Shown: one piece after another, positions 1,931 through 34,837 of the stretch | Layout: each line of letters starts with the position of its first letter | Numbering within the stretch: position 1 is the stretch's first letter | Assembly: GCA_963514005.1 (NCBI GenBank) | Contig: OY740805.1 | Span: 20,646,001 to 20,710,000, forward strand | DNA length: 64,000 bases | Source: Raja brachyura | Lineage: Eukaryota | Direction: 5' to 3' | Position numbers and translations under genes: made by a program | The notes under the pieces: generated by a model | Told to the model about the DNA's origin: nothing | Database searches by the model: none | What the model saw: the letters and a program-made list of their open reading frames with translations, nothing else

Positions 1931-2051
1931 TCCACTACACCGCTCTATCCTGGGGATTTATCCACATTTCTCTTCAAGTGACCCAACATCTCCTTCTTAC
2001 TTAACTTCAAAGTGCCCCTGCATGTTAACATTCTCCACATTGATTCTCCAT

Positions 2052-2846
2052 GTGTAAGAAAGAACTGCAGATGTTAAAATCGAAGGTAGACACTAAATGC
2101 TGAAGTAACTCAGCAGGTCAGGCAGCTTCTCTGGAGAGAAGGAATGGGCGTTATTTTGGGTCGAGACCCTTCTTCAGACTGATGTCAGGGGAGGGACAAA
2201 GATAGAATGTAGGCGGTGACAGTAAGACTGGTGGGAGAATTGCAAAGGGGGAGGGGATGGAGAGATAAATGGAGGGCTATCGAAAGTTATAGAAGTCAAT
2301 GTTCATAACGCTGAAGTGCAGACTGCCCAAGCGAAATACGAGGTGCTGTTCCTCCAATTTGTGCTGGGCCTCACTCTGACAATCGAGGAGGCCCAGGACA
2401 GAAAGGTCAGATTGGGAATGGGAGGGGGAGTTGAAGTGCTGAGCCACTGGGAGATCAGGTAGGATAAGACGGACTGAGCGGAGGTGTTCAGCAAAACGTT
2501 CGCCGAGCCTGCGCTTGGTCTCGCTGATGTAGAGAAGTTGACAACTGAAACAGCAGATACAGTAGATGAGGTTGGGGGAGGAGCAAGTGAACCTCTGCCT
2601 CACCTGGAAAGACTTTGGGTTCATGGATGTAGTCGAGGGGGGAGGTAAAGGAACGGGTGTTGCATTTCCTGCGGATGCAGGAGAAAGTATCGGGGGAGTG
2701 GGTCGTTCGGGTGCGAAGGGACGAGTTGACCAGGGAGTTTCGGAGGGAACGATCTCTGCGGAAAGCAGAAAGTGGTGGAGATGGGAAGATGTGGCCAGTA
2801 GTCGGATCCTGTTGCAGGTGGTGAAAATGTTGGAGGATTACATGCT
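2052..2846 (-). mobile_element. Penelope-like element 3' fragment (GIY-YIG endonuclease plus terminal repeat)
   Basis: ORF 2277-2624 FQVRQRFTCSSPNLIYCICC...LYISETKRRLGERFAEH...VAQHFN; terminal repeat with degenerate hammerhead core at about 2140-2180. Confidence 0.85.
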
Positions 2847-3081
2847 GTACTTACTATTAAAAGTCCTTACTTTTCTCCATGTCTTTCTTGGTGAAACCAA
2901 ATGCAAAGTATTTGTTTCGTACCTCGCCTCCGTCCACAAACACCAAGCACATATTCGCTGCTACATCTTTAAGCAATCCCACCTTCTCCCTCGTGTTTTG
3001 GTGCAATGGCTGCCTCGCCAAAACTCTGCCTGTCCCTTCCTTCTTTGTGTCGGTTTTGTATGTATTGAATGTATGTTCTTC

Positions 3082-3952: not shown

Positions 3953-4622
3953 CCTCTACTCACCCACTCGAGTTATTCCCTCCTTTCTTTACATTCCTCA
4001 TAGCTCCTGCCTGATTCCATCCTCCTGATCCTTACATGCACTTTCTTTTTCTTTCTTTCTAGTTAAGTTTATCACCTTTTTGGTTATGCAAGCTTCCATT
4101 CCTTTGCCATTCTCATCCTTCCTCACACTGGAACTGGTGATTAAATAACTCATACATAAGTCATGGGAGTCACGGTAACAGGACAATGTACCAGGACATT
4201 GTAACATGTGCATATCCATTCCACCTGTGCTTATAATGCAGAATACTTCCTACTTTCAATGGGATTTTCCGCCAATAATATAAACCACCTGATTGCCACA
4301 TGCATGAAGTCAACACAATTTAAGAAGGACACAAGATAGACACCAGAAGCTGGAGTCACTCAGCATCTCAGGTGAAAAGGAATGTGACATTTTGGTGGCA
4401 GGTGTGAAGGAGGTCTCAACCAGAAACATCATCTATTCCCTTTCTCCAGACTTGCTGCCTGACCCACTGAGTGACTCCAGCTTTTTGTGTTAATCTTCGG
4501 TTTCAATCAGCATCCGCAGTTCCTTCCTAAAATTAAGAAAGACACAAAGTGTTGGGGTAACTCAGCAGGTCAGGCATCATCTCTGGATAATACACAGGCT
4601 ACGATCTTTAGGTCCATCTGCT

Positions 4623-5460: not shown

Positions 5461-6756
5461 CCCTTCTACTTTGCTCCCGCTTCCCAAAGAGGAAAATGGA
5501 AGGACGAGGAGCATGACATGGACAATGGAAGCATGGAAACAGGCACTTCGGCCCAGCCAGTCCGCACTGACCAGTGATACCCGCACATTAACATTATCCC
5601 ACACACACTAGGGACAATTTATATTTATATAAAGCCAATTAGCCTGCAAACCTGTATGTCTTTCAAGTGTGGGAGGAAACCAAGATCTCTGAGAAACCTC
5701 ATGCGGTCACGGGGAAAAAGTACAAACTCCATACAGACAGCAGGCTTGTACCTTGGTCTATGGCACTTTGAGGCAGCAATATGTTTACAAAAGTTGGAAG
5801 AATTATGCCTGTGGCAGAAACACCACTGCAGAATCCCAACCTGATCCTATCTTATGGATGGCTCTTCCTATCAGAGAACCTGGAATTAAGATGAAAGGAA
5901 AGAAACCCTGGATCTATGCCCCAGGTGTGAAATAAGCTCATATTTGTTACAAGGACAATTATTTCGTATAGGTTAGAGATAAAGCATGAAAACAGTCCCT
6001 TCAGCCCACTGTACCCACATTGACCAGCAATCTCTGTACATCAGCACAATCCTACATACGAGGTACAATCTACATTTTTTACCGAAGCCAATTAACCTAC
6101 AAACATGTGTGTCTTTGGAGTGTTGGAGGAAACTGGAGCACCCAGAGAAAACCCTCACATTCACAGGGAAAATGTACAAGCTCCGTACTGACAGCACCCG
6201 GAGTCAGGATCGAACCCAGGTCTCTGGAGCTGTGAAGCAGCAGCTCCACCGCTGTGCCACCACGCTACCCTGTTGTCATTAGTATTGTGCGCTGAAATGT
6301 TTCTATCAGTGATTATGGCAACTCTCTCCAAACCTCTATACATTTTCAGTAGACCAAACAGTTCCTCCTTCCACCTTATTAGGCTGAGTTATTGGATGGC
6401 TGAACTCTTTGGGAACCTCCTTAGTGCAAGTTTGATTTAGTTTAGTTTAGAGATACAGTGCAGAAACAGGCCCTTCAGCCCACGGAGTCCGCACCAACCA
6501 GTGATCCCAACACATTAACAATATCCTACACGCACTGGGGACTATTTACATTTATACCGAGCCAATTAACCTACAAACCTGTACGCCTTTGGAGCGTGTG
6601 TGGAAACTGAAGATAGCGGGGAAAGCCCACACAGATCACGGTGAGAATGTGAATGTAAATCTTGAATCAACACTGTAAAATGGTTCTGTGAAGGGAAAAT
6701 GGAGGTCAGGCGAACTGGGTTGAAACTTAAAATGTCTGCTGACCAAAGTTGCTGAC

Positions 6757-6947
6757 TACACAAAAAGCTGGAGAAACTCAGCGGGTGCAGCAGCATCTAA
6801 GGAGCGAAGGAGATAGGCGACGTTTCGGGTTTTCGACCCGAAACGTCGCCTATCTCCTTCGCTACTTAGATGCTGCTGCACCCGCTGAGTTTCTCCAGCT
6901 TTTTGTGTAACCCTCGATTCTCCAGCATCTGCAGTTCCTTCTTTAAC
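6757..6947. repeat. Inverted pair of Penelope terminal repeats (long hairpin)
   Basis: Arms 6757-6830 and 6836-6909 are reverse complements with about 1 mismatch; flanked by direct repeat aaagttgctgacta (6745-6758, 6950-6963). Confidence 0.85.
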
Positions 6948-10600: not shown

Positions 10601-11295
10601 AAACCCCTGTCCCACTTACTTGTCCTTGACACGCTAATTAAGCGACCTCGTGGTCGCGTTGAAGCGCGACGGTCCAGTCAAGGTCGCGTGCGACTTCATA
10701 CGCCTGCACAGCCGTCTGGAGCGCGTGACGTCATTTGAAGATGGACACCAAATGCTGGAGTAACTCAGCGGGACCGGCAGAATCTCTGGAGAGAAGCAAT
10801 GGGTGATGTTTCAAGTCGAGACTCTTCTTCAGTCTGAAAGAAGGGTCTTGACCCGAAACGTCACCCATTCCTTCTCTCCAGAGATGCTGCCCGTCCCGCC
10901 GAGTTACTCCAGCATTTTGTGTCTATCTTCAATTTTCTTGGCCCCGCTCTGGGAGTAGAAGTGGGGGCGGATCCGGACCGCAACGGCCGTGATCCCCAGG
11001 CCGAGCTCGGCGATCGTTTGCCTGCTTCTGCTGCTGGAGGTGAGACGTTGCATCGCGCCAGAGTCTTGGGCCTGTCCCACTTTGGCCGTCAGTTACGCAA
11101 CAGGCCGGTGGCGCGCGAAGATTTAGTTCGCTACAAAGTTTCGGAGCGCCGCACGATGCCGCGCACAACTACATACCCCTCCGCGCCTCTCAGTGGGACC
11201 GGCCCCGCGCGGCCACTGGATGCCCGTGCGCCTCAACGCAACGACGAGGTCGATTCATTTGCTTGCCAAGGACACGCAAGTGGGACAGGCCCTTT
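10601..11295. mobile_element. Harbinger-type MITE composite containing an inverted Penelope-repeat pair (10742-10930)
   Basis: TIR cccctgtcccactt (about 10604) and aagtgggacaggccc (about 11278-11293), plus an internal second TIR pair near 11068 and 11192; CpG-rich. Confidence 0.6.
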
Positions 11296-11840: not shown

Positions 11841-12594
11841 ATGCTCATAAATCTCATAAACATAACAATGTTGCAGATAATATGCGCACCATGATTAATG
11901 CAAATAAAACATCATATTTTTGAAGGCAATATGATTCGATAAACATGGTTCAATCAATCTGACGATAATCCAATAAATGTCTTATTCACATTAATTCACA
12001 TGCAATTTGAAAATAATAATAAATATTGCAAGGTATGGAAAATTGATAGAAATTATGCCCAGTGCATAATATTTTGATGTATTGTACACACCTTATCCTG
12101 TCCAGAGTTATAGTTTAAATATAATTTGTTTAATGAGTAACCAAAGAGGTAACAAAAAGCAATGTCTTAAAGAGTAATTAATCATGAATCATGAATAGAT
12201 GAATATGTGTTCATAATGAATACCCAAGGTATGCAGAGTCTTCTATCCAGAGATGCTGCCTGTCCCACTGAGTTACTCCAGCATTTTGTGTCTATGCTGT
12301 AAACCAGCATCTGCAGTTCATTCCTACACATCTACAGTATGTTATCCACACTCTCACCCAATCTCTGCACAACAAGAGCAATTTACAGTGCCCAATTAAC
12401 TACAAACCTGCACGTTTGCACGATATAGGACAAAAATGGAGCACCCGGAGGAAATATGTGTGGTCACAGGGTGAACGTGCCGACTGGCTTGAGGTCAGGA
12501 TCTAACCTGGATCTCTGGCACAGCGCGGTATTTCTGAGAGATTTTTTTATTTACATTGATCACAATCCAACTTTATTCAAATGAATGAACTAAC

Positions 12595-12855: not shown

Positions 12856-14929
12856 CTAGACACAAATAAAAGAATACAATTATTGTCAAGCAATAGACAT
12901 TTCTATGGATAGGAAAGGTTTGGAGGAAAACCGGCAAAACACCAATTGGACTTAATTTGCACTAAACATGATACCCTTTATCCTGTATCTATATATTGTG
13001 AACGGCTTCATAGTAATGTAGTCTTTTCACTGACTGGATAGCACACACAAAACATTTTCACGTGACATTAATAATCAATTAAATTAAGCTAAAATATAGG
13101 TAGGTGGGTCAAGGTTAGATGGGGCATCTTGGCCGGCATAGATAAGGTGGGCTGAAGGGCCTGTTTCTATGCTTATATGATTCCAAATGTCAAGCTAACT
13201 TAGATTATTTTAGTTTAGCTTAGACATACAGTGTGGAAACAGGCCCTTCAGCACGAGTCCGCACATTAACACTATCCTACACACGAAGGACAATTTACGT
13301 TTATATCAAGCCAATTAACCTACAAACCTGTACGTCTTTGGAATGCGGGAGGAAACTGAAGATCTTCGAGAAAACCCACACTGGTCATGGGGAGAACGTA
13401 CAAACTCCCTACAGACAGCACCCATAGTCAGGATCGGACCTGGGGCTCTGGCACTTTAAGGCAGCAACTCTATCACAGCCCCACTGTGCCGCCCTTACTG
13501 ATCAACATTTGGAAATGATATGATATTCAGATATTCCACCCACAAAGGTGAGTCACGGCAGTTATTTGGTTCCCAGGCCACCATTTATTACACCGTGTGT
13601 CATTAAATAGTAAAATCTAGGGGTGGGTATTGGAAATGTCAGGAAGATAAAAAGAGATCAGGTCCCAAAAAGGTTAGCATGGACTTAGTGGGTCAAAGGG
13701 CTTGTTTCTGTGCTGCACTCTCTATGCTGCACTCTCAATTAGTTGCATCACATAATATTTATGTCGTAACCTGCATTTGATTAGTCTAACAAGGGTTCAT
13801 TCACTTGTGTGTCAGACGACATGTAGCTCGCTGTTGGCTCCTGTCGTCATCCAACATGTTGACAGAATTGGTCGCCCGACACGTCACAGAGTACATCGTG
13901 CCGTCGGTTCCGGGGATCGCCACGACGAGACTTCTGTCACGATTCCACACAAAAGGGTGACGGTGGAACAACGGTAGAGTTACTGCCTTACAGCACGAGA
14001 GATGGCCAGGTTCAATCCTGACCATGGGTGCTGTCTGTATGGAGTTTTTACATTCTACCTGTGGGTTTTCCCTGGGTGCTTAAGTTTCCTCCCACACTCC
14101 AAAGACGGGTTTGTAGTTTAATAGGCTTTGGTAAAGATTATAAATTGTTGCAAGTCTATTAGATATTTCTACTGTACGGGGATCGCTGTTCAGCATGGAC
14201 TTGGTGGGCTGAAGAGCCTGTTCCCATGCTATATCTCTATATCATCTTGAGCTGCAATATACAGTAGGCTGGCCAAATCGGTTTGCATCATGCCAGTACA
14301 TCAAGAGCAGACTCTAAAAATATTAATGTAACATTTAACTTCTGTTTTGATAGGACCACCTGGTGACTTTCTGATAGTTCACCACATCCCCTTTTGTCAG
14401 GGAGTTCCACTATTATCTCACTGGAGAGGCCCCACATTCACACTTCCTCAAATACCACACATTTCCTGTTCGACTAGTTTTTCAACTGTTAACTCTCACA
14501 GTCTGCCCTGTGAACATGCAGAAATTAACATCACAAATAAATCAAGATTGAACAACTCATTATCAACCTTAGACACTAAGTGCTAAAGTAACTCAGCAAG
14601 ACCACAGCATCTCTGGAGAAAAAGGCTGGATGGCACTTCGTGTCAGGACCCTACTTCAGTCTCATGCAGGTTTAGTCTGAAGAAGGTTCCCAAACCCAAC
14701 GCATCAGTCTGAAGAAGGGTCCCAACCTGAAGCTTCACCCATCATCACCCATCCTTTTTCTACAGAGATGCTGTCTGACCCGTTGAGTTACTCCAGCATT
14801 TTGTGACACACTTTGGTACAAACCAGCATCTGCAGTTCGTTGTTTCTACATCATTATGTATCTTTTTGAGAAAGCGTTCCGATAGAATTTGCATCCAAGC
14901 AAAATAAGATCACACAAAGTTACCAATAA

Positions 14930-15243
14930 GGGCGGCACAGAGGCACAGCGGTAGAGTTGCTGCCTAGGGTTTGCAGTGCCAGAGACCCGGTTTCAATCCT
15001 GACTATGGATGATGTCTCTACGGAGATAGTACGTTCTCCCAGTGACCTGCGTGGATTTTTGTCGATATCTTCGATTTTCTCCCGCACTCCAAAGACGTGC
15101 AGGAATGTAGGTTAACTGGCTTGATGCACGTGTTAAATTGGCCCTCGTGTCCATAGGATAGTGTTAGTGTGCGGGTTAGTCGCTGGCCGGTGCAGACTTG
15201 GTGGGCCGAAAGGCCTGCTTCCATGCTGTATAGCTAAACTAAA
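14930..15243 (+). mobile_element. V-SINE (HE1-like), near full length
   Basis: gggcggcacagaggcacagcggtagagttgctgcc head, central V-domain, gggccgaaaggcctg...ctaaact tail. Confidence 0.8.
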
Positions 15244-16349
15244 AAAACGAAAGAACCTATTTTACATATCTCACTTCCTTTGGTTCAGGCAGTGTTCTCT
15301 CCGGTGAAGCCTGCTTGATAGTCATTTTCAGTGCTTATTCTGGCTAATAGTGTTAGCAACATGAAAACCACAGAAATAATCTTAAAAAAACTGAATCATG
15401 CAGCATATAAACAGGCCCTTTTGCCCAATCTTGTCTATGCTGACCGAGATGCTTATCTACAATTACATGAATTATGCCCTTATCCCTCCCTGACTTTCCT
15501 ACCAAAAGCCCAAATGTTGTATAGACATTGTGGTTATATCTGCCTCTACCATCTCCCCTGCAGCTCATTCCAGATAACAACTACAGTGAGAAACATCTGC
15601 TCAGATCCCCTTGACATTTCTCTCCCATCACGTTAAAACTCCAGTTCTAGTCTCCACTGCCCTGGGAAAGAGGCAGTTACCCTCTATACTATCTATACCC
15701 CAAATATTGTCCCAAAATGCTGGAGTAACTCAGCAGGGTAGGCAGTACTTCTGGAGAGAAGGAATGGATAATGTTTAGAAATGTCACTCATTCCTTCTCT
15801 CCAGTGATGCTGCCTGTCCTACTGCGTTACGCCAGCATTTTATGTCTGTCTCCTGTGTAAACCAGCATCTGTTGAACCTTCCTGAAGAAGGGTCAAAACC
15901 TGAATAAAAAGGGTCTTGAGCCGAAATGTCACTCATTCCTTCTCTCCAGTGATGCTGCCTGCCCCACTGAGTTACTCCAGCTTTTTGTGTCTTTCTTTGG
16001 TTTAAACCAGTATCTGCATATCCTTCCGTCACTACCTATAGCCCTCATTATCTCACTCCTGCATTCCAGTGAGAATAAATGCAGCCTATCCAATCTCTTC
16101 ACATAACCACACACCTTTATTCCAGGCAACAACCTGGCAAAACCCTTCTGCACTATTCATCACATCCTTTTTAGTTTAGAGATACATTGCAGAAACAGGC
16201 CCTTCGGCCCACAGCCGACCAGTGATCCCCGCACAGTAACGTTAGTACTGGAACGACCACAACTCTAAACAATACTCCATGTGCAGCCTAACCAATGTTT
16301 TGTTTGATTTCTCAACTCATATACTTGATGACTGAGTCTATTCAGTTAT

Positions 16350-16866: not shown

Positions 16867-17859
16867 TAAGCGGACAAACATGCCAAAGTGCATTCTTTGC
16901 TTTCCTGTCTACCCTTGTCGGCATTTTTACGTAACTTATGAACTTGCAATCCAAAGAGACTCTGTACATTAACACCCCTCAGGTTCTGACCTTTTATGTC
17001 CTACCAGAACATGACATGAGGATGCACACAACTTCACACATGTCCAGATTACATTTCTTCTACTATTGCTCCATCCAGCTCTCGAGATAATCTGTATCCC
17101 ACTGTATCCATAGACAACCTTATTCAATGTTTATGAATCCATCAATGTACATGTCATCTGCAAACCTAGTAATCAAACCACCTATATTCACATCCACATC
17201 ATATATACTATGCACTGCAAAACACAAAGGGCTGCAGGGACGCAGCAGGTCAGGTAATATCTGGAGCAATGTTTTCCACTCAGCACGTACTCCTGCAGTC
17301 TAGAATGGACAGATGATGTTTTGGGTCAGACACTTCTTCAGACTGACTGTAATAGAAAGCTGAAAAAGAGAGGTGGGGCTGGGACAAAGCCTGACAAGTG
17401 ATACAGGTGATAAGACATAAAATGCTGGAGCAACTCAGCGGGCCAAGCAGCATCCCTGGAGAGAAGGAATGGGTGACATTTTAGGTCAAGATTCTTCATC
17501 AGACTAGTTGGGGATAAGGGAAACAAGAGATATAGACAATGGTGTAGAGAGGTAAAGAACAGTGAATGAAAGATATGCAAAAAAGTAATGATGATAAGGG
17601 AAACAGGCCATTGTAAGCTATTTGTTGGGTGAAAACGAGAAGCTGGTGCGACTTAAGAACAGATTTGATAAGTAGATGGGTGGAGTAAGTGGCAACGGCT
17701 AGAGGTGAAAAAGTGACAAAGGGTCTGAAGATGGGTCTCGACCAGAAACATCACCCATTCCTTCTCTCCAGAGATACTGCCCGTCTCGCTGAGTTACTCC
17801 AGCTTTTTGTTTCTATCTTCGGTTTAAACCAGCATCTGCAGTTCCTTCTTACACAAGAG

Positions 17860-18690: not shown

Positions 18691-19366
18691 GCAAAAGAGG
18701 CTGCTTTGGGACACAGAAAGTGGTAGATGCCTGGAACACACTCTCAGGAGAGGTGGATGCAGATGCTACAGCACAATATATGTGGATAAGCATTCACACA
18801 CATGAACAGGCAGGAAATAGAGGGGTATAGACCACATGGTGACGTGGAATTAATGTAAATAGGGTCTGAAAAAGGGTCTCGACCAGAAACATCACCCAGA
18901 AACAGAGATGCTGCCTGTCCCGCTGAGTTGCTCCAGCTTTTTGTGTCTATGTTCTGTTTTAACCAGCTTCAGCAGTTCCTTCCTGTACATCCTGCCTTGT
19001 GCATCATTGTTCTGTGTTTACAAATACAGTGTAAATAAAACCTGGCATCCTGTGTACCATTTAAATCAATTATGATTGATGTATGTTTTTATTCCACGTA
19101 ATCCTACAAAGTATCCCACAAATATACCACTCAGTGGCAGCATTCAGTGGATGGTGGCTGAGGTAAGGCAACGATCAACTAGTTCATGGATCACATTTGT
19201 TTTCTGTTGACATTGTCCTTTACAATGTAATTTAACAATTATTTTTAATCTTTTTTCCCCAAGTTACTGAACGTTTTCCACAGGGAGTACTTTTTTATGG
19301 CCCATTCTAGTGAGAATATTGATGATTGAAAAACATGGAAACTGTTCCAGTGGGCAGCATTATTAT

Positions 19367-19686
19367 GGGCGGCACGGTGCAGTAGAGGTAGAGTTACTGC
19401 CTGACAGCGCCAGTGACCCGGGTTCGATCCTGACTACAGGTGCTGTCTGTATGGAGTTTGTACATTCTCCCAGTGACCCGCATGGGTTTCCTCCAAGACC
19501 TTTGATTTCCTCCCACACTCCAAAGACGTACAGGTTTGTAGATTAATGGGCTTGGTGTAAATATCAGATTGTCCCTAGTGTGTGCGTGTATGTGTGTGTA
19601 AAGTGGCGATAGTGCGGTAATCGCTGGCCGGTGCGGACTCGGTCGGCCGAAGGGCCTGTTTCTGTTCTGTATCTCTAAACTAAACT
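19367..19686 (+). mobile_element. V-SINE (HE1-like), near full length
   Basis: A-box-like head, B-box-like ggttcgatcc, V-domain, tail gtatctctaaactaaact. Confidence 0.8.
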
Positions 19687-20170: not shown

Positions 20171-22535
20171 AAATCTCACATTCCCATTAACTTCCCTCGC
20201 CTCTCAATTTTCCCATCACCCACATTTACTCGGGGAAAATTACCTTCCAGTAAAATAACCTGATCCTACCTCACAAATGTTTACAAATGCTTTAAGTGTA
20301 ACCTTGTTAAATGTCTACTGAACTGGTGATTAATCTTTATCTCCCATTTTCCCTCCCTTCTCAAAAATGTACATACTTCAGCAGGCATAACTGCACTCAT
20401 ACACATCCTTACTGTTCTCTCTGATAAATCCACAACAGGTCAAGAGAACAATTGCTCGAGTCCTGAGGATTGTATTGCTGGACTCGACTCTCAATATTAA
20501 TCAGCAAAAGACCCATGTTCTAGGGTATGATTACATTACAAAAACTACCAAATAACCTTTCCGTTTTCAGTAGAAAATAATGTAAAATAATGTCGTGGTG
20601 CTATAAACTTGACACAGAAATATAACATGTTGGAAATGGTCCAACAGCATCTGTGGAGGTAAATAGAGTTGCGACATTTTAGTTGCCAAATTAAATGATG
20701 ACGGTCCAGAACGTGAATTCAGATTTCCTCTCCTTAAGCTTAACATTTTCCATGCTTTCTGGGAATTTAGTTTGATTTAGAGATACAGTGCAGAAACAGG
20801 TCCTTCAGCCCACCGATTCCATGCCGACCAGCGATCCCCGCACACTATCACTATTCTATGCACACACTTGGGACAATTTAGAATTTTACTAACGTAATTG
20901 GTATGTCATTGGCGTGTGGGAGGAAACCGGAGCACCCGGAGGAAACCCGCGCCGGTCATGGGATGGGAAGTTCGTACAAACCGTATGAACCGACAGAAAC
21001 CGTAGTCAGGATTGAACCCATGTCCTTGTGCTGTGAGGCAGCAGCTCTGCCGCTGCACCACCGTGCCGAACCATATTTTTAGCATTTCCTGCCAAATCCT
21101 AAACTGTATCACAAGATGACTTCTCATGCAGGCTTGGTCTTATGTCATTTAAAATATTACTACATACCCCAGCAAATGGTTTATGAATAATAGAAGTGAC
21201 TTACTGTACCAGTTAAAAATCAATGTGAAAAATTTAATTCCCTCCAAATTTCATTCCCTTCTGATGTGCAGCAAGGAAGAATCTCATTGTCCTATCTGGG
21301 ACATGTGACAATAAAACACTCTTGACTGTTGAAGATGTGAGGAAGGGTCTCAACCTGTAACGTCACCTATTTCTTTTTGTCAGAAATGCTGCTTGACCCA
21401 CTGAGTTTCTCCAGCATTTTGTGTCTATCTTCAGTTCCTGCATCAGCAGTTCCTTCTTACAAAGGTGTTCCACCACCACCTGAGTTCCTGCAGCAGTTAT
21501 TTTTATGATACTAGGTTGACATGCAATTGAGACATGCTGTGAGCTTCCCTTCAAAACACAAGGACAATTAAGCCCATATGTTAATTCCTTGCACATTTTA
21601 ACCAATTACGTATTGTAAAGCCTTAACAGTGCAATTTACATTCAGCTTTCAGATAACGCATTTGACCACGAACAGATGTCTATCTCATTAAATTCTACCA
21701 GATAATGCTTCGAAAGTCTGGAAAAGAGCCTCGACCTGAAATGTCACCCATTCCTTCTCTCCAGATATGCTGCATGTCCCGCTGAGTTATTCCAGCTTTC
21801 TGTGTTTATCTTTGAAAGACATTCTCCCTCCCCCACACTTCCTGCAACTTAACATGCTTCTTTTTTCTCCTAGAAAAATAAACAAAGTGCTGGGACAACT
21901 CGACAGGTCAGGCAGTATCACTGGAGAACATGGATATGAGTTGTTGTGGAAAAGGATCCTTCTTCAGACTAATTATAGGAGGTTGGTATGGGCAGTGTGG
22001 ATGGGGAGGAGGCGATGAAGGAATCTGGATGAGAGGAGTTGGACAAAAGTGCTGGAGAAACTCAGCGGATGAGGCAGCATCTATGGAGCGAAGACAATAG
22101 GTAATGTTTCAGGCCGCATCCCTTCTTCAGAGGAGGGGCAGGTAATAGGTGAACATAGGTGAGGAGGCGATAATGTTGGTATCTATCATCTATCATCTGC
22201 CACACTTTGTCCTGCCCCTCCTCGCTTCCAGCTTTATTTACCCTCACAATCAGTCTGAAGAATGGCCCCAACCAGAATCATCACCATCCCACATTCTCCA
22301 GTAATGCTGCCCGTCCCACTGAGCTATTCCAACACTGTGTCTTTTTTTGTTAACTAGCATCTTCAGTTCCTAAATTCTTCTTTCTACTCCTTCCCGGTAC
22401 TGAAGGGCCTCTGGCCTGAAACATTAGCTCTGCTTTTCTTCCCACATATGACCTACTGCATATTGCAAAGTGTTTTCTGTATTTTACTAAAGTCAATTGT
22501 AACATTATTATTCTTGCGAGCATTAGTGAATTAAT

Positions 22536-22866: not shown

Positions 22867-25800
22867 TACTATCCTTTTCAACAATGTTCAACATGGCTAT
22901 GTTTCGAGATACAGCGCGGAAACAGGCCCTTTGGCCCACCAGGTCCGTGCTGACCAGTGATCCCTGCACATTAACGCGCACCTGGGACAATTTTTACATT
23001 TACCAAGCCAATTAACCTACAAACCTGCACGTCTTTGGAATGTGGCAGGAAACCAAAGATCTCAGAGAAAACCCACGCAGGTCAAGGGTAGAACGTATGA
23101 ACTCCATACAGACATCGGGATCGAACCCGGGTCTCCTTCAGGGCCCTTCAGCCCACAGAGTTCATGCTGACCATTGATCTCCCATTCACTCTAGTTATTC
23201 CACATTCTCATCCACTCATTACACTAGGGGCAATTTACATAGGCAAATTAACCTACAAACTTGCATGCCTTTGCGGTGTGGCATAAAACCAGAGCACCCA
23301 GAGGAACCACAGCGGTCACGGCGAAAACGTGCAACTCCACACAGACAGACCCGAGGTCAGGATTGAACCTGGGTCTCTGGCACGATGAGGCAGCAGCTCT
23401 CTACCATTGCACCATTGTGCTGTATTTCACAAAACCCATTAACCAGCTCAACACAGGTTAATGGAAAAAACAAATCAAAGGAGCATTGACGGCCATGAGT
23501 GACTGTGTTTTATGGAAAATATGGTGGGAGGAATAGGATCGATGAATGAAGGAAAGAATGAATGATACTCTATTGTGACATGTACCCAGGGTACCTGGGT
23601 ATAGTGAAATGCTTTGTTTTCCATACAACCTCGGTCTATCCTAGACTGGACTTTGCTGGCTTCACTTTGCACTAAACATTATTCCCTTATCATGTGTCTC
23701 TACACTGCAAATGCATTGATTGTAATCATGTATTGTATTTCTACTGACTGGTTAGCATGCAACAAAAAGCTTTTCACTGTACGTCGGTACACGTGACAAT
23801 AAACCAAACTGAACCTAGGCAGTACAAAAGTGTCGCCATGTGTTGGTACAGACAAAGTTACAAAAGTACCGAACAGTCCTATCCACTGCCTGTTGTCAAC
23901 CATGGCAGCAGACCACATCCCCACCAGTTCCCCCTTCATTCTTGGTGGCACTCCCACCCCCACAGTTCCCCCTTTGTCCTCGTCCCCCCTCAATGGGACA
24001 GCCTCCCTGTGCTGAATGCCCTACTGCTACAATGTTCAAAGTATAACATTAGATTAAGCAATGCTCACTGTTGGACTTTCTACCTGCAAACCTTTAGTAC
24101 TTTGTTGTTCTCTTTGAATAAAAACATTCTTGGGTGTTCTTGTCTGAACAAACTAAAATGTGTTGGTTTTTCCGTGACGTTTGAATTCGGGTATCATGCT
24201 CACCAATCTTTTTTAACAGATGCAGCATGGAAACAGGCCTTTCTGCCCACTGAGTCTGCACTGACCATCAATCACGCATACACTAGTTCTATGTTTTCCC
24301 TGTTTCACATCCTACACACTCAGGGCAATTTACAGAGGCCAATAAACCTACAAACCCACACGTTGTTGGAACGTGGGAGGAAACCGGAGCACCCAGAGGA
24401 AACCCGAGCGGTCACAGGAAGAACATATAAACTCCATACAAACAGAATCCATTGTTGGAAACCTTCTTGTGCCTGTGTAGGAAGGCATTGCAGATGCTGG
24501 TTTACACCAAAGATCGAGACAAAATGCTGGAGTAACGCAGTGGAACAGGCAGCATTCCCGGATAGAAGGATTTAGCATTTTAAAGATCAATACTTTGAGG
24601 GCCCCATTTACAATGACATGTGCATCCCATCATTTGGAATGCCCCTTCACCTACTCTTACTTTCAAAGCATTCTCCACACATATAGTCACAGAGACACAC
24701 AAACAGACCCATCAGCCGCCAGAGTCCACTGACCATGAAGCACTAATTCCATACCATTCCATTCCATCATTGAATGGATCTACAGGAGGTGCTGCCTCAG
24801 AAAGACAGCTAATGTCATCAGAGACCCACACCACCCTGGCCATACTCTCAGGGCCGGCCACCCTGGACCGGGAATTCGCCCTGAAAATCGGGCCCATCCA
24901 TCATGGACCGAGTTCTTGGTCGCTGTGGACCAAGGATGGAGGAACCATCTGGAAGGCTCAACTCGTCGGCCCAGAGTGGAAGGAGTCAGATGGATGGCTG
25001 ATAGACAGACTGGCTGCATGAGGGAATGCACTGCCTCAACAGTGGAGTGGGTGCTGGAGGCCCTGCAGCAGCCTGGGGCTTGGCTGTTCCAGGCGCCGCT
25101 CCAAGAGGCCGGGCGCATGGACCAGTTACTCCCTGCAGCAGTAGAGGACATCACAGCTTCGCTTGGCCAGGCCGACCCTGGAACAACACCAGGACAGTGG
25201 GGCTCATGGTCAGGCCAAGAACCCTCACTTACAACAACTGGGATGTGAAAATGGCACAAATAACTGGCGACACGTACTGCATCTGAGATGCTTATCTAAG
25301 ATATATCTAAGGGCTTATATATATATAGTGATACCTGTATTAAACTGTACACAAAAATAAATTTCACTGTACCTTGGTACATGCCACAAATAAAATACCA
25401 TTGAAACAATGAACTACCTTTGAGGTTAGAGAGCCTGAGAACTGTTAGCTCCAGGTTTAAGAGCAGCTTTTTTCTGACGAGCAACAGGCTTTTAAACACT
25501 GTACAACACTAACCACAACCTTACCTCAACAACTCTGATCTGTGATGGACTTTATTTTGCTTGCAGTAAGGAAGTTTTGTTTTTCCACTGTTATGGTTTG
25601 GTTACCTAGTATAACTATTATTAATTTATTGTGTCATTGATTATCTTATATTCAATATGTGCATGAGAATTTCATTGTCCAATTGCCAGTACAGATGACA
25701 ATTAAACTCTTGCTCTCGACCAACCCATTCTTATTCTCTGCAAATTCCCATCATATCTCTCCAGATTATATTACTTACCTACAAATGAAAGTCAATTTAC

Positions 25801-26280
25801 ACTGTGGAAACAAGGAACTACAAATGTTGGTTCACAAAGAAAGATGCGTAAAGTGCTGGATCATCTTAGTGGGTAAGGCAGCATCCCTGGAGAACATGGA
25901 TATGTGATGATGGATAGATGTTTCGGGTCAAGACCCCTTCTTCACCCAGTGGAAGGGTGTTGATCCTAAACGTCATCTATCCATGTTTGCTGGAGATGCT
26001 GCCTGACCAGCTGAGTTACTCCGGCACTTAGAGATTGACACAAAATGCTGGAGTAACTCAGTGGGACACGCAGCATCTCTGGAGAGGTCTCGAGCTGAAA
26101 TGCCACCTATTCCTTTTCTCCAGCGTTGCTGTCTGACCCGCTGAGTTACTCCAGCTGTTTGAGTCTATCTTCGGTTTAAACCAGCATCTGCAGTTCCTCC
26201 CTACGCAGCTCTTCCCTTGGCATTGTTCCTCAGCATTGCAAACCATCTTCCAGTTTTAATCAAGAGTTGAGTGCTTAATT

Positions 26281-26318: not shown

Positions 26319-28129
26319 CCCCCTGCACCAAATTATATATACACACATACACACATATACACAACGAGAAACGGAACAATGAGATTTTTACTCAGAGCAT
26401 GATAACAGGTCTGTACAGACAATAAACATAGAAAATACATAATACAACTAACAAAAAAACAAAATCAATAAATTACCAACCTCAATACTAGGGCAAACAA
26501 AATCTGAAAGTCCTTAGTGCAACCAAAGACAGTCCATAGAATTTCACAGTTGAGGTTAGCATTGTGTAGTGTTCATTTGCATGATAGTTGTTGGGAAGAA
26601 GCTATTCTTCAACCTGGTGGCTATGGTTTTCAAGCACATGTACTTTCTTCCCCATGGTAGGAGGTAATGAGAGTGTGGCCAGGGTGATGATGTTGGCTAC
26701 CTTTTTGAGACAGCGTCTCGTGTGGATCCCTTCAATGGTGGTGAGGTCAGTACCCATGATGAACCGGGCAGTATAATATCCTGATTATTCACAAATGTAA
26801 GTACTTCATCTGAAGAGTAGGCCTAAGTCGTAGAATTGCTCTCTATATATCCCTTCCTCTATTTTTCCTTTAAGATGCACCTTAAATGTTTATTTTCTAA
26901 TTGTCATGTAATGTCATTATACTGCTCGAAGTAAAATGTTACAGAATAATATTCTTACTTGAAGCATTCTCAGTGAAGCATTTTCCTACATTGGAACTGC
27001 TTTAAATATGTTATTCTTTATATCTATGTCTGTTTCCCCTTTCACCAACTTAGATTATTACCATCAAAGGAGAATGTCATTTTTTGTGTGCTGCTGGAAT
27101 GTGATCATTTGATGTGTGCTGGAATGTGATCATTAAAATCTTCCCGTATATTGAACCCTGAACTACAGTACACTCAACTATGAATAATGAACAAAATAAA
27201 GTCAAAGTGTTGGAGTAACTCAGCAGATCAGGCAGCATCGCTGGTGACAGTGGATAGGTGATGTGTCAAGTCAGACGCTGTAGACCTATGGACAGTCTTT
27301 GGTTAGACTAAGCATTCAAGGTGTTTTTTGCACGCATTGGGACTATCAATTTGCTGAATTTTTAGTATGTTATTTATTTGTATTGTCTTACAGTTCTGCT
27401 CAGCTGCTACGAGAATGTCATTGATTTGTAGTCAGCACATATGACAATTGAACATTCTATACTCTCTTTCCTTCTGGACTCTCTTGTGGAGTGGGAACAA
27501 ACCTAACATAAGTAAAGTGGTGCCATTCATCCTTTGTCCCCAATCTGATATTCTATAAGATCATAATGATCCTCTAGCAGACCACCATTTTTCCAAACTA
27601 ACCTTTTCCTTTTGTATCCAAGCATCTTCCAACCCTGCCTCAAGCATCTGATTGACTGAATGCCCACAGCCTTCATGGACAGAGAATTTGAAAGACTAAT
27701 TCCCCTCTGGGTGAAATAATTTAATCTCTTTACTACACTGAATTCAATGATTCAATAGTATTTTATTATCACAGGCACCTAGGTACAGTGAAAAGTTTTG
27801 TTCCGTATACAACTCAGTAAAATCATATAGCAGATCGAACCTAGGCAATACACAAGTGTCACCATGTTTTGGTGCCATAAGAATGTCTGAAGCCTTATTT
27901 GTAAACTGTGAATTTTGGTTTCAGACACACCAGTCTGGGGAGAAATAAAAAGACCCTCCCTCATGTTCTGAACTTTGACTCGCTTCATAAAGTGCAGAAT
28001 TTGGATGTTCAGCCCTTCGAGTTTACTCCACAATTTAATCATGGCTGACCTATCGTTCCCTCTCAACGCCAATCTCCTGTCATCTCTCTGTGACCTTTGA
28101 CACTCTTAGAAATCTGGCGACATGCTGGC

Positions 28130-30031: not shown

Positions 30032-30950
30032 TGTGTAGGAAAGAACTGCAGATGCTAGTTTAACTCGAAGGTAGACACAAAATGCTGGAGTACTCAGCAG
30101 GCAGGCAGCATCTCTGGAGAGAAGGAATGGGCGACCTATCGGCTCGAGGCCCTTCTTCAGACTGATGTCAGGGGAGTGGATGGGACAAACATAGAATGTA
30201 GGCAACGACAGTAAGACTGGTGGGAGAACTGGGAAAGGGGAGGGGATAGAGAGGGAAAGCAAGGGCTATTTAAAGCTGGAGAAGTCAATGTTCATGCCGC
30301 TTGATTGTAAACTACCCAAGCAAAATATGAGGTGCTATTCCTCCAATTTGCACTGGGCCTCACTCTGACAATGGAGGAGGCCCAGGACAGAAAGGTCAGA
30401 TTGGAATGGGAGGATAGATTGAAGTGCTGAGCAACCAGGAGATCAGGTAGGTTAAGATGGACTGAGCAGAGTAGTTCAGCAAAATGATTGCCGAGCCTGC
30501 GCTTGGCCTCGCTGATGGAGAGAGGTTGCCACCTGCAACTGCGGAAACAGTAGATGAGGTTGGAGGAGGTGCAAGTGAACCTCTGCCTCACCTGGAAAGA
30601 CTGTTTGGGTCCTTGGATGGAGTCGAGGGGGGAGGGAAAGGGACATGTGTTGCATTTCCTGCCGGTGCTGGGGAAAGTACCTGGGGAGGGGGCAGTTTGG
30701 GTGGAAAAGGACGAGTTGACCAGGGAATTTCAGGGGAACGGTCTCCACGGAAAGCAGAAAGGGGTGGAGACGGGAAGATGTGGCCAGTACTGGGATCCTG
30801 TTGGAGGTGGCAAAAATGATGGAGGATTATATGCTGTGTGCAACGGCTAATGGGGTGGAAGGTGAGGACAAGGGGGACTTTGTCATTGATACGAATGGGG
30901 GGAATGGAGGGGGGGGGGAAGCAACAGCGGAGCATCGAGGAAACCCTGGT
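30032..30950 (-). mobile_element. Penelope-like element 3' fragment
   Basis: KVPLVLTFHP...QHIILHHF...AFRGDRS linker, GIY-YIG RQRFTCTSSNLIYC, then terminal repeat at 30032-30170. Confidence 0.85.
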
Positions 30951-31331
30951 GAGTGGCCTCGCCCTTGTTTGTTTTACACGAGTTAAAATCAGTTTAAACC
31001 AAGATCTGCAGTTCTTTCTTCCTCAAAGGAAACGGGGCATGGTGCAAATCAAAGCAGAAATTTCAGTCTGGATTTTACTGAAACAGGAGAGATTAAACCT
31101 TTTCAACTTTTTTAAAAAAAATTTCAAAATAGACTTTATTCAAGTAATAAATATTTACAATACATCAACCGTGCGAAAAATCCATCCGACATTTTCGGAG
31201 GCAACCTTTTTAACGTCTGCATGTTCCTCAGACTAACGCGCGTTTTAAAATTTAGTCGCCTCCTGTCCAGATTGAGATTAAGTCAAGACGCTTTTAGCCA
31301 GTAGAGAATAAAATTAGAATCATTAACTTAC

Positions 31332-31500: not shown

Positions 31501-34500
31501 CGGTGCCATTGGACCAGCACAAAACAATTGACTGCAATGGAGACGCGAGGAGGTGTTGTTGCCGATTTACAACAAAGAAAAAGACACAAAGTGCTGGTGT
31601 AACTCAGCAGGTCAGCTCGCAACTCCGGAGAGCATAGATTGGCGACGATAGACACAAAGCACTGGAGTAACACAAGGAATCGAGCAGCATCTTTGGAGAA
31701 AAAGGATGGGTGACTATTGTCAGTCTGAAGTAGGTTCCCAATCTGAAACAGCGCCTGTCAATGTCCTGCAGAGATGTTGCCCGACCTGCTGAGTTACTAC
31801 AGCACTTTGTTTTTTTCGCACTCTATAGCAAATGGAATGGAATGGCAGGGCGTAGTTGCCTGGAACTGTAATTACATTTCAGATACCGCTCCATTCTTGT
31901 GCTGCTAACTGCTCCTAATGTTATTTTATGATTCAGGAGACCCATAAATCCAATCACCTGTCCTAACTTGAATCATTACAATGCAGAACAAAAAGGAGGA
32001 AACCAAACACTGTCCACAGCTGGTAGAGCTGCCGCCTCACTCACAACATCAGAGACCAGCGTTAGATCCTGACCTCACGCATTGTCTGTGTAGGTTTTCT
32101 TTAAGAAAGAACTGCAGATACTGGAAAAATCGAAGGTAGACAAAAATGCTGGAGAAACTCAGTGGGTGAGGCAGCATCTATGGAGCTAAGGAATAGGCAA
32201 CGTTTCAGGTCAGACCCTACTTGGAGGGTCTCGACCCGAAAAGTCACCTATTCCTTCACTCCATAGATGCTGCCTCACCTGCTGAGTTTCTCCAGCATGT
32301 TTCCCTATCTTCAGCGTAGATTTTGCTCGTTCTTCCTGTGACCAGCTGGGTTCTTCCCGGGTGCTCATGTTTTCTCCCACATTCCACAGATGTGTGGGTT
32401 TGTCAGTTAATTGTAAATTTCCCCTAGTGTGTGTGTGGGGTTTGACATAAAAGTGGGATAACATTGAACTATTGTGAACGGGTGACCGATGGTCTGCATG
32501 ATGGGCTGAAGGGCCTGTGTCCATATTGTATCTTTCAACTCAAAATGGAATTCTGTAAAGACATTCTATTGGAAGCTAGTTTGGACATTGAAACTGTGCA
32601 GCACATGGTGGTGGATATCGACGGCAATGGTGTCTGTGAAGTTATCAAGGACCTATCTATCAGAAATGGGGAGAACTTACACAATAGCATTGCTATTGAT
32701 TTATTATTGTCACTTGTATTGAGATACAGTGAAAAGTTTTTGTTTGCGTGCTAACCAAATCAGATCAGGAATGACTAAGGGATTGTACTAAATGACAGGG
32801 CAGGCTTGTGGGGGCTGTTTCAATGCAATAAACTCCATATTAATGTACCATATAAAGAATCCAAGTGCTGGTATGCTTGGTGATGAGCCCAAAATATTGA
32901 TTTTGTAATTCAAGATCTCCTCAGTGTTGCAAGAGTAGAGTTGGTGCCCATAGCAGCAGGGACTCGGGTCGATTCTGACCAACGGTGCTGTCTGTACAGT
33001 GTTTGTACATTCGCCCTGTGATGGCGATGTTTTTCTCTGGGTGCTCCAGTTTCCTCCCACATCTCAAAGAAGTGCAGGATTTCAGGTTAATTGGCTTTGG
33101 TAAAATTGTAAATTGTCACTTGCCGTGCTATAGTACTAGTGTATGGGGGTCAGCGAGGACTCAGTGGGCCAAGGGCCTATTTCCGTGACGTACCTCTGAA
33201 GTCTAAAGTCAAAATGTTAATTTCTATTCATTTTAATTTTCAGCTCTTAACCAAAATCATTTCAATCAACCCAAAGATGACCTTGTTTCTCCCTCACGAC
33301 ACCAGATTTAAGTCTGCACTTTTAAAGAGGCTGTTAATTTTGCTCGGATAGTGCTGAACTAATTCACTTATGTTACTGAAGTTATAACTCACAGCAGTGA
33401 CCACAGTAAGCAAGAGACATCAAATGCATGAACACAAGAAACGGGAAGCAGGAATAGGCCCACAAGTCACTGGCAGAACTAGTTCAAAGGAATGTTTGGG
33501 TCCATATTAATCATCCACTGATTGGGGCCACATTATTCTGCTCCCTTCTCCCTAAAGTTTAGTTTAGTTTATTATTGTAATGTGTACAAAAATACGGGGA
33601 AATACTATATCTTGCATGCTCTCCAGTCATAATACATCATACATGAGTCCAATCACAGACAAGTAAGAATGTAATGATTGTAGTGGGTAATTGTAGAGAT
33701 CGCAAGAAAAATGAAGCATTTGTTGGCCGTGAGTAAAGTCTGTTCTGCAGCTCAATTAGGTCATGACTGACCTACTCTTGACCAGAAGAGTCTGTAACCA
33801 GTAACCCACAACTTCTCAAAGAAACAAATCCATCCTTCTCAGTAATGTAATGAAACTACACACTGCAGTTGAAAATTCCCACAATTCATTATCATCTGGG
33901 AGAAAAATAAAAACAAATTCTCCTCACTTTGAAAACCTGGCGTCCGAGGTCCAGTTTCCTCCATGAGGGGAACTATCAAGAACAGGAGGAAATAGAACAG
34001 GAGTAGGCTATCAGCCCCTGAGAATAGGAACCAAACTTGTCCCACCATTCAATGAAATGATCACTGTTCAGTTGGTCTCAGCTCCTTAGATTAGTTTGGT
34101 TTAGGGGTACAGCATTGAAACAGGCCCTTAGTCCCACTGAGTCTGCGCTGACCAGTGATCCCCATACACTAACACTATCCTACACGCACTTGGGGCCAAT
34201 TAACCTGCATATCTTTGGAGTGTGGGAGGAAGCTGGTATCCCCAGGGAAAACCCACACAGGTCATGGGGAGAACATAAAAAATCTATACATACAGCACCC
34301 ATGGTTAAGATCAAACCTGGGTCTCTGGCACTGTAGTATCTCTACCGCTGCACTTCTGTACCACCCTTTGCGTCACCGTGCTGCCTACACAGTTCTATCC
34401 TATACATGTGGTACAATTTACAGATGCCAATTAACCTACAAACCTGCAGGTCTTTGGAACTGGGAGGAAACCGAAGCACCAGGGGAAAACCCATGCAGTC

Positions 34501-34707
34501 ACCGAGAGAACATGCAAAGTTGGTACAGACAGCACCCATAGTCAGGATGAAACCTGAGTCACAGGCACTGCAAGGAAGTAACTCCACTGCTGTGCCACTG
34601 TGAGGCCCCGCTGTCTGAAATGTTGGTTGCTAGTTGTAACTTTATTCATGAGGGCAATCGTCAAGAACACAAGAAAATATAACAGGAGCAGACTAAGAAG
34701 TAGTCTC

Positions 34708-34837
34708 GAAGAAGGAACTGCAGATGCTGGAGAATCGAGGGTTACACAAAAAGCTGGAGAAACTCAGCGGGTGCAGCAGCATCTAAGGAGCGAAGGAGAT
34801 AGGCGACGTTTCGGGTCGAGACCCTTCTTCAGACCCC
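34708..34837 (-). repeat. Penelope terminal repeat with intact minimal type I hammerhead-ribozyme motif (34801-34836)
   Basis: Minus strand GGGU-CUGAAGA-A-GGGUC(UC)GACCC-GAAA-C-GUC-GCCU. Confidence 0.7.

What the first reader, a model, noticed from the sequence alone, without database searches (positions are those of the whole stretch)
34801..34836. One of the most abundant short repeats carries a minimal hammerhead ribozyme (more than 20 loci in 64 kb)
Seen: the ~130-bp repeat contains CUGAAGA-A-GGGUC(UC)GACCC-GAAA-C-GUC, i.e. hammerhead core, stem II and a loop-less palindromic stem III (ACGU), with short stem I (GGGU/GCCU here; GGGU/ACCC at 17721-17756). Predicted cleavage is after 34805 on the minus strand. 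Variants lie near 2145, 10800-10865, 14675-14740, 17721, 18862, 22255, 30130, 31723, 38292 and 40659 (x3). It forms the 3' terminus of the GIY-YIG Penelope fragments. Known: Penelope-like elements carry minimal type I hammerheads that cleave as dimers. Inference: a very high-copy ribozyme-bearing repeat, mostly solo, tandem or inverted, may propagate as a non-autonomous retrozyme-like unit, with intact intronic copies selected against on the sense strand.
Basis: partly seen in the sequence, partly recalled or inferred. Interest (0 to 1): 0.7.

Follow-up and report, generated by a model that had tools for sequence, protein, structure and literature searches.

The report
Decayed ribozyme ends of Penelope retrotransposons
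The short repeat that makes up about 8% of this window is the end piece of a Penelope-like retrotransposon; it carries a known minimal hammerhead ribozyme motif that is intact in only 1 of 43 copies, and the copies are likely dead-end insertions made by the parent element, not a self-spreading ribozyme.

Summary
The motif at 34801-34836 (minus strand) is real and fits the published minimal hammerhead of Penelope-like elements (PLEs). The repeat has 47 hits (43 independent, 7.8% of the window), but only this copy keeps core, stem II and the ACGU palindrome. The core decays no more slowly than the rest (13% vs 10% mismatch). The repeat is the 3' end of a Neptune-type PLE, likely from a skate or ray: three GIY-YIG fragments run into it. 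Copies have two 3' ends about 35 nt apart (the known PLE 'tail'). Nine head-to-head pairs occur, 7 with one short and one long arm, and 5 of 14 insertions tested have 7-14 bp target duplications. A retrozyme reading is not supported: no tandem arrays, and 0 of 43 copies start at the cleavage site, so the template was uncut. Less expected: 16 of the 36 copies without a long upstream pLTR start within 5 nt just before the ribozyme core, at an initiator-like YAGTCT. They may be 'strong-stop'-like cDNAs running from the tail to the transcript's 5' end (inferred). Known kind; modest interest.

The parts
34801..34836 (-). Only intact minimal hammerhead motif: stem I 5' GGGU 34836-34833; CUGAAGA 34832-34826; extra A 34825; stem II GGGU/CUCG/ACCC 34824-34813; GAAA 34812-34809; C-G-U-C 34808-34805 (predicted cut after 34805); stem I 3' GCCU 34804-34801
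34707..34836 (-). Whole solo copy (motif + about 60-nt body + about 35-nt tail), young subfamily; no target duplication found
6756..6946 (.). Young head-to-head pair (short arm on -, tailed arm on +) joined inside the stem II palindrome, with a 14-bp target duplication AAAGTTGCTGACTA; near-identical to the 34707 copy
2051..2856 (-). 5'-truncated Neptune-type PLE: GIY-YIG C-terminus (2856-2277), about 100-nt pyrimidine-rich 3' UTR, hammerhead region (2180-2150), body and tail
30034..31021 (-). Second PLE 3' fragment (EN 30887-30269, repeat 30164-30034) with an opposite-strand tail-only piece at 30989-31021
37001..38419 (+). Third PLE 3' fragment: inverted ORF piece 37303-37001 (-), EN 37331-37822 (+), 3' UTR interrupted by an inserted ~375-bp element, repeat 38291-38419
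4328..4531 (.). Head-to-head pair (short + tailed), abutting a third copy at 4516-4613
10735..10935 (.). Head-to-head pair joined at the TCAG-T-CTGA palindrome (both arms short)
14566..14845 (.). Head-to-head pair (short + tailed) with a 7-bp duplication and a partial hammerhead (14675-14706) in the junction
15698..16027 (.). Head-to-head pair plus a direct third copy
25808..26203 (.). Two adjacent head-to-head pairs, tail to tail
31554..31813 (.). Head-to-head pair plus a direct third copy
32100..32316 (.). Head-to-head pair (tailed + short)
17720..17853 (+). Solo tailed copy beginning AGGGTCTG, lying opposite-strand in what looks like another PLE 3' UTR; stem II closing pair and palindrome broken
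18862..18986 (+). Solo tailed copy beginning GGGTCTG
21334..21815 (+). Two solo copies (21334-21461 tailed, 21714-21815 short) starting at the hammerhead's 5' edge
17220..17505 (-). Two short copies, each with pyrimidine-rich upstream pLTR of a different subfamily
21879..22371 (.). Three copies with full or partial upstream pLTR (21970-, 22131-, 22251+)
40656..41110 (.). Two solos (40656+ short, 41110- tailed), each with a 7-bp target duplication touching the 5' GT; repeated at 45037/45491 and 49425/49879 by the block triplication
36246..36556 (+). Two direct copies, 88% alike; the second starts at AGTCC
12240..12328 (+). Copy truncated 3' of the hammerhead; similar truncated copies at 24476-24577 (-), 27196-27274 (-), 59524-59645 (+)

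Best explanation
The repeat is the terminal ~95-130 nt (minimal hammerhead motif, body, optional tail) of a Neptune-type Penelope-like retrotransposon, and its copies are likely dead-end insertions written by the parent's endonuclease and reverse transcriptase from uncut RNA. Shown: linkage to the GIY-YIG C-terminus, two 3' ends, inverted pairs, target duplications in some insertions, neutral-looking decay, and no copy starting at the cut site. Inferred from the anole PLE in vitro work: the endonuclease nicks DNA and the RT primes inside the RNA at one of two sites about 35 nt apart, giving short and tailed ends. When both strands are extended, the two cDNAs join at palindromes in the hammerhead (TCAG-T-CTGA, stem II), giving head-to-head pairs. 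Inferred here (about 40-45% by itself): the sharp 5' boundary at YAGTCTG is the transcript's start, so priming in the upstream pLTR yields a short cDNA from tail to RNA 5' end. Priming in the downstream pLTR yields the longer copies with 3' UTR and EN. The motif probably cleaves weakly, as a protein-assisted dimer, in the parent RNA (untested); nearly all genomic copies cannot.
For: Three EN fragments lead on the same strand through a pyrimidine-rich UTR into the repeat. A profile of 78 full-length relatives (about 830-1130 aa, RT + GIY-YIG; 76 of 78 with the CX2-5CxxC linker) maps onto them, and PMC8557442 ties that linker to Neptune-type EN (passages). 3' ends are bimodal: 19 at consensus 86-105, 1 at 111, 23 at 125-130. 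Contigs of three coded organisms pile heterogeneous loose ends at 2087-2088, which is consensus 93-94. PMC8557442 describes a 30-40 bp tail often at one end only; PMC11167929 equates it with two RT start sites and finds unprocessed RNA the dominant template. Of 9 head-to-head pairs, 7 are short + tailed, 2 short + short, 0 tailed + tailed; partners are more alike than background (0.819 vs 0.747, p=0.006). Target duplications of 7 bp or more in 5 of 14 insertions tested, vs 2.1% by chance. 0 of 43 copies start at consensus 30-34. Core non-CpG mismatch is 40/308 vs 237/2361 downstream (p=0.11, core higher), and the stem III CpG is intact in 10 of 39, like other CpGs. 5' boundary: 17 of 36 copies without long pLTR start at +1 to +5 (16 after setting aside 22131, which has partial pLTR), vs 18 spread over 7-46. 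In run X4, 396 contigs break off exactly at 2180, the A of AGTCTG, into unrelated sequence (agreement 0.32).
Against: No full-length element or 5' pLTR-ORF junction lies in the window, so the parent and its start site were not seen. Rfam gives no hammerhead hit even at E<=1. The hammerhead fold is not favoured: stem II probability 0.01 or less in context, double hammerhead -14.5 vs best dimer -26.3 kcal/mol. Base-pair covariation does not exceed shuffles. Nine of 14 insertions show no clear duplication, junction windows were set after looking, and the 4395/4401 match may come from the neighbouring related copy. The pair-similarity signal rests mainly on 3 of the 9 pairs. The short + tailed pattern (7 of 9) is not significant on its own. 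Local-alignment edges blur by a few nt. Three solos of two subfamilies start with (A)GGGU, not AGU, which this model does not explain. The 2180 pile was among the listed rows for X4 only (4030 rows not shown).
Confidence: 0.78

Rival explanations
1. The solos are a non-autonomous, SINE-like PLE derivative: short copies are transcribed and re-inserted by the PLE protein, and the (A)GGGU start that lengthens stem I to 4 bp was gained in such lineages.
For: Three solos (17720, 18862, 34836) start with GGGU, which pairs with ACCC/GCCU, and none of the pLTR-linked copies does. Solos and pairs outnumber EN-linked copies about 10 to 1 in the window. pLTRs act in cis for trans-mobilisation in rotifers (PMC3846280, passages).
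Against: Solos fall in the same subfamilies as pLTR-linked copies (alignment). GGGU arises in two different subfamilies and also matches the internal GGGTCT, so slippage could make it. The EN 3' part also collects very high summed contig depth (same order as the repeat, not a copy number).
Confidence: 0.15
2. The repeat is a retrozyme that spreads through self-cleaved, circularised RNA and rolling-circle reverse transcription.
For: Retrozymes derive from pLTRs and were reported in one chondrichthyan genome (bioRxiv 2026.07.22.740005, parts 1-3 of 5). Two direct neighbour pairs are 88-91% alike. One junction (14675-14706) could be a 5' cleavage fragment joined to a full copy.
Against: No tandem array; no two adjacent intact motifs; 0 of 43 starts at the cut site; minimal, not canonical, motif; fixed 5' and 3' ends, not circular permutation.
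Confidence: 0.05
3. Same PLE origin, but the sharp 5' edge has another cause: YAG|T after a long pyrimidine tract is a 3' splice site (as at the Drosophila virilis Penelope hammerhead), or RT simply stalls or folds back at the TCAG-T-CTGA palindrome. This competes only with the start-site step of the best explanation.
For: The 7 long-pLTR copies have 71-85% pyrimidine upstream, 6 of them ending in YAG. In D. virilis the intron ends at helix I (PMC4209133). Pair junctions fall on palindromes, and PMC3846280 explains such junctions by self-priming.
Against: Solos share no upstream exon. In 40656 and 41110 the target duplication touches the GT directly, leaving no room for one. Only 1 copy ends within the 80 nt upstream of the boundary while 7 extend past it, which fits a hard end better than a pause.
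Confidence: 0.35
4. The motif is a fossil or chance look-alike that does not cleave even in the active parent.
For: No Rfam hit, unfavourable fold, 2-bp native stem I, no covariation.
Against: The window consensus has every feature of the published consensus in the expected pLTR position, across several subfamilies. Published examples include 2-bp helix I, and the anole PLE ribozyme also needed protein.
Confidence: 0.15

Closest known systems
Minimal type I hammerheads (min-HHR) of metazoan PLEs (Cervera and de la Pena 2014, PMC4209133; main text parts 1-2 of 4 and supplement part 2 of 3 read)
   Same: CUGANGAH, G-C closing pair, GAAA, palindromic C-G without loop 3, pyrimidine-rich 5' side, position in the pLTR, thousands of mostly single copies attributed to truncated PLEs, and opposite-strand pairs.
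   Different: No cartilaginous fish in the supplement file searched (0 hits for Callorhinchus, Leucoraja, shark; file 1 could not be searched). Helix II is short (4 bp + tetraloop) and native helix I is 2 bp. Local density is high (43 copies in 64 kb).
Neptune-clade PLEs with tail and inverted pLTR (PMC8557442 and PMC3846280, passages)
   Same: C-terminal GIY-YIG with CX2-5CxxC linker, 30-40 bp optional tail at one end, inverted 5'-truncated arm, palindromic junctions, solo pLTRs, 8-10 bp target duplications.
   Different: Here the insertions are mostly reduced to the last 95-130 nt and share a sharp 5' edge at the ribozyme. Rotifer solos were ascribed to recombination or deletion; here some solos keep target duplications.
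Poseidon PAc of Anolis (PMC11167929, parts 1-2 of 4)
   Same: Two internal RT start sites about 110-120 nt downstream of the hammerhead, both DNA strands cut and extended, uncut RNA as template, insertion into its own pLTR.
   Different: Other clade. In PAc the ORF starts at stem II; here an ATG lies about 20 nt after the cut site and is open through the tail only in the young subfamily.
Animal non-LTR retrozymes (PMC7229834, passages; bioRxiv 2026.07.22.740005, parts 1-3 of 5)
   Same: Type I hammerhead in a short pLTR-related repeat; monomers exist.
   Different: Retrozymes are tandem arrays of 150-450 bp units with mostly canonical motifs and circular RNAs. No array and no adjacent intact motifs occur here.

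Membership tests
PLE minimal type I hammerhead | Core CUGANGAH...GAAA N palindrome NUH | tested here: met
   34832-34805 and the window consensus vs the published consensus; intact in 1 of 22 full-span copies
PLE minimal type I hammerhead | G10.1-C11.1 pair, helix II, extra nucleotide between 9 and 10.1 | tested here: met
   4-bp GGGU/ACCC with A before it; 74.8% of cells paired over 30 copies
PLE minimal type I hammerhead | Helix I of 2-5 bp | tested here: met
   4 bp with two G-U at 34836; 2 bp, 3 at most, in pLTR-linked copies
PLE minimal type I hammerhead | Covariation supporting the fold | tested here: inconclusive
   No measure above shuffles among 30 decayed copies; RNAalifold predicts only 3 pairs, none in the motif
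PLE minimal type I hammerhead | Self-cleavage as dimer | not testable with these tools
   The double-hammerhead fold can be drawn but lies about 12 kcal/mol above the best dimer
Neptune-type PLE | C-terminal GIY-YIG EN with CCHH and CX2-5CxxC linker | tested here: met
   Window ORF 37295-37822 shows the linker and the CxxC; its relatives P0001-P0003 hit Pfam GIY-YIG, one above the cutoff; the window fragments alone gave no Pfam hit
Neptune-type PLE | RT and EN in one ORF of about 900 aa | tested here: inconclusive
   True of relatives; the window holds only EN-side and one N-terminal fragment type. The clade is assigned by motif; no tree was built
Neptune-type PLE | Hammerhead in the repeat downstream of the ORF | tested here: met
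   3 EN fragments
Neptune-type PLE | Optional 30-40 bp tail, often at one end | tested here: met
   Bimodal ends; 7 of 9 pairs one-tailed
Neptune-type PLE | Inverted 5'-truncated arms and target duplications | tested here: met
   9 pairs; duplication of 7 bp or more in 5 of 14
Non-LTR retrozyme | Tandem array with two or more consecutive units each holding a complete hammerhead | tested here: not met
   (window only)
Non-LTR retrozyme | Canonical type I motif with loop 1-loop 2 contacts | tested here: not met
   Minimal motif; no Rfam hammerhead hit
Non-LTR retrozyme | Units delimited or permuted at the cleavage site | tested here: not met
   0 of 43 start at consensus 30-34
Non-LTR retrozyme | Expressed as unit-length linear and circular RNA | not testable with these tools
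   Only contigs were offered, no raw RNA reads

The most novel reading that the evidence does not exclude
The short copies are a genomic record of PLE 'strong-stop' DNA. Transcription starts at an initiator two bases before the ribozyme core, RT primed in the upstream pLTR runs off the capped 5' end after 95-130 nt, and these products (singly, or doubly primed and joined at ribozyme palindromes) became a top repeat class of a cartilaginous fish genome. Tens of thousands of junctions would then map PLE start site, both priming sites and double-strand priming in vivo, and show that the ribozyme does not cut the transposition template. No such reading appeared in the listings of searches.
Probability: 0.35. 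Interest if true: 0.6.

Novelty: new member of a known kind. Interest (0 to 1): 0.36.

Why it matters
As a ribozyme finding it is ordinary: thousands of single minimal hammerheads from truncated PLEs were reported in other vertebrates in 2014. Its value is mechanistic. PLE transposition is understood mainly from one in vitro system, and the role of the hammerhead is open. A very abundant family with sharp ends gives a natural data set to test whether the template is uncut, where transcripts start, and whether inverted structures come from priming on both strands. It also explains what a dominant short repeat of skate- or ray-like genomes is.

Tried and rejected
No whole genome is held, so no genome-wide count or intron strand test. 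Rfam at E<=1: 9 hits, none a hammerhead. DNA pattern scans: 0 in metagenome contigs, genome contigs and viral contigs. A shorter 20-nt pattern gave 10 metagenome loci that match only the pattern itself and were dropped as chance. The search for related loci with P0002 found no confirmed locus in viral or genome contigs. Earlier scan findings: nothing by sequence or by words. No RNA holder was listed; X18 is only guessed to be RNA and was not used as evidence of expression. Summed contig depth was rejected as a copy-number ratio, because it depends on how close the window copy is to each subfamily. A downstream structure (8-bp helix between body and tail, inner hairpin) is possible by complementarity, but folding z-scores are weak (-0.8 to -1.1) and covariation is at shuffle level; kept as a lead only. 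A cap-derived G before the start: the plurality first loose letter in X4 is G on the element strand, but at 40656 that G belongs to the target duplication; not claimed. An ungapped identity count was out of register and is not used. The phmmer search added only more unnamed relatives. Literature searches listed no paper on this repeat in cartilaginous fishes; Lunse et al. 2017 on dimer cleavage is recalled, not seen; Repbase and Dfam could not be checked, and bioRxiv supplements are closed, so the chondrichthyan retrozyme families of the 2026 preprint could not be compared.

Full report
Observation. The minus strand at 34836-34801 carries GGGU, CUGAAGA, A, GGGUCUCGACCC, GAAA, C, G, U, C, GCCU. 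A strict pattern for this minimal hammerhead hits once in the window, against 0.03 on average in 30 shuffles. Rfam lists no hammerhead at E<=1; its models probably do not cover the loop-less variant (inference). An HMM from 10 window copies finds 47 hits (7.8% of the window) and none in 3 shuffles. Four are repeats within a triplicated block and were dropped before all counts, leaving 43. Of these, 22 span the motif, 5 keep all 11 scored core positions, and only the 34836 copy also keeps stem II and the ACGU palindrome. The title's 'more than 20 loci' is therefore true of the repeat and not of intact ribozymes.

What it is. Three fragments of a GIY-YIG C-terminus (2856-2277, 30887-30269, 37331-37822) continue on the same strand through a pyrimidine-rich stretch into the repeat; the third is interrupted by an inserted element. 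A fourth, weaker EN piece lies at 18608-18454. The named protein relatives are from Mobula, Rhincodon, Chiloscyllium and Rhinoraja, so the host is likely a cartilaginous fish, probably a skate or ray (inference). Full-length relatives carry RT and GIY-YIG, and 76 of the 78 aligned have the CX2-5CxxC linker, which PMC8557442 associates with Neptune-type EN. The window consensus matches the published consensus for PLE minimal hammerheads point by point. PMC4209133 already reports about 4,000 and 9,000 such motifs in coelacanth and Xenopus, and says of the schistosome motifs that most are single and probably from truncated PLEs.

Ends and arrangement. 3' ends cluster at consensus 86-105 (19 copies) and 125-130 (23 copies), with one at 111. 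Contigs from three coded organisms show piles of heterogeneous loose ends at the short end. This is the optional PLE tail, which in the anole element corresponds to two internal RT start sites. Nine head-to-head pairs join inside the motif, some exactly at its palindromes. Seven have one short and one tailed arm, and partners are more alike than random pairs (0.819 vs 0.747, p=0.006), though only three pairs are strongly so. Target duplications of 7-14 bp flank 5 of the 14 insertions tested, against 2.1% by chance; the other 9 show none. These marks point to direct insertion by the PLE machinery.

The 5' boundary. Seven copies carry 80 nt or more of pyrimidine-rich upstream pLTR from several subfamilies. 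Of the other 36, 17 begin at consensus +1 to +5 (one, 22131, has partial pLTR), 18 begin at 7-46, one is tail only, and none begins at the cut site. In run X4, 396 contigs leave the reference exactly after the A of AGTCTG. The native context YYAGTCT fits the initiator consensus YYANWYY (recalled, no call); PLE promoters lie in the pLTR. The simplest reading is that RT reached the RNA's 5' end, as with retroviral strong-stop DNA. A splice acceptor or a fold-back at the TCAG-T-CTGA palindrome remain possible. In each case the template included both sides of the cleavage site, so it was uncut, as found in vitro for the anole element.

Is the ribozyme working? Not shown. Core positions mismatch the consensus in 40 of 308 cells, downstream positions outside CpGs and subfamily-variable sites in 237 of 2361 (539 of 3293 if those variable sites are kept), and the stem III CpG survives in 10 of 39 copies, like other CpGs. 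So genomic copies look unconstrained. The motif's presence in the consensus of several subfamilies suggests constraint in active parents (inference). Folding disfavors the active form: stem II probability is 0.01 or less in context, and the double hammerhead is about 12 kcal/mol above a dimer paired through the stem II palindrome. Covariation is at shuffle level. Published minimal motifs also cleave poorly or need protein.

The retrozyme reading. Retrozymes are defined by tandem units each with a complete hammerhead. The window has no such array, no two adjacent intact motifs and no permuted units. A milder form, in which some solos are re-mobilised as non-autonomous elements, is not excluded: three solos begin with GGGU, which lengthens stem I, and that start is unexplained. 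Intron strand bias could not be tested; strands are 22 to 21.

Verdict. A real motif of a known kind in a new host group, mostly dead. The sharp 5' edge and the one-tailed inverted pairs are worth a genome-wide look because they could test PLE mechanism directly. Interest 0.36.

Noticed in passing
window 14675-14706 (+): A partial hammerhead running from +1 to about the cleavage position sits directly before a full copy. It could be a 5' cleavage fragment captured by template jumping, but its last letters also resemble the native upstream pLTR; single ambiguous case.
   Followed up: partly
window 17720, 18862, 34836: Solos of two subfamilies start with (A)GGGU instead of AGU, giving a 4-bp stem I; the same letters occur at the start of stem II, so slippage or a distinct subfamily are both possible.
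   Followed up: partly
consensus 51-58 with 109-116, and 67-82 (e.g. window 34707-34790): CCAGCAT occurs before each of the two 3' ends and can pair with an upstream AUGCUG; a candidate RT-positioning structure. The tail end can also pair with the core GAAGAAGG. No covariation support.
   Followed up: partly
window about 40600-53700: A 4.39-kb block occurs three times; the first two are 99.9% identical. It holds an L1/Tx1-like RT fragment, a PLE N-terminal fragment (41911-42129), two solos and a TA repeat. Recent tandem duplication or assembly artefact.
   Followed up: partly
window 53809-58229 (+): DIRS-like element: gag-like ORF, RT (Pfam RVT_1) and tyrosine-recombinase-like ORF (Pfam integrase N-terminal domain), with frameshifts.
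   Followed up: no
window 61287-62510 (-): 407-aa env-like ORF (weak Pfam TLV_coat and HR1-HR2 hits, below cutoffs), likely part of an endogenous retrovirus.
   Followed up: no
window 8796-9473: Opposite-strand ORFs that look by eye like a Harbinger transposase piece and a MADF-like partner; no Pfam hit at E<=0.01.
   Followed up: no
window about 37830-38205 and 18069-18286: A ~375-bp element with short inverted ends (AAAGATCCTA) sits in the 3' UTR of two different PLE fragments.
   Followed up: no
window 37001-37810: The PLE ORF fragment has a 5' inversion with overlapping profile positions 748-794, like twin priming.
   Followed up: partly
window 3732-3911, 5535-6647, 13259-15238, 19374-19684, 34195-34598 and others: A second abundant family, SINE-like by eye, with self-BLAST depth up to 18.
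   Followed up: no
P0004: A Rhinoraja neuromedin-U receptor 1 gene model ends in this PLE's endonuclease C-terminus: exonisation or mis-annotation.
   Followed up: no
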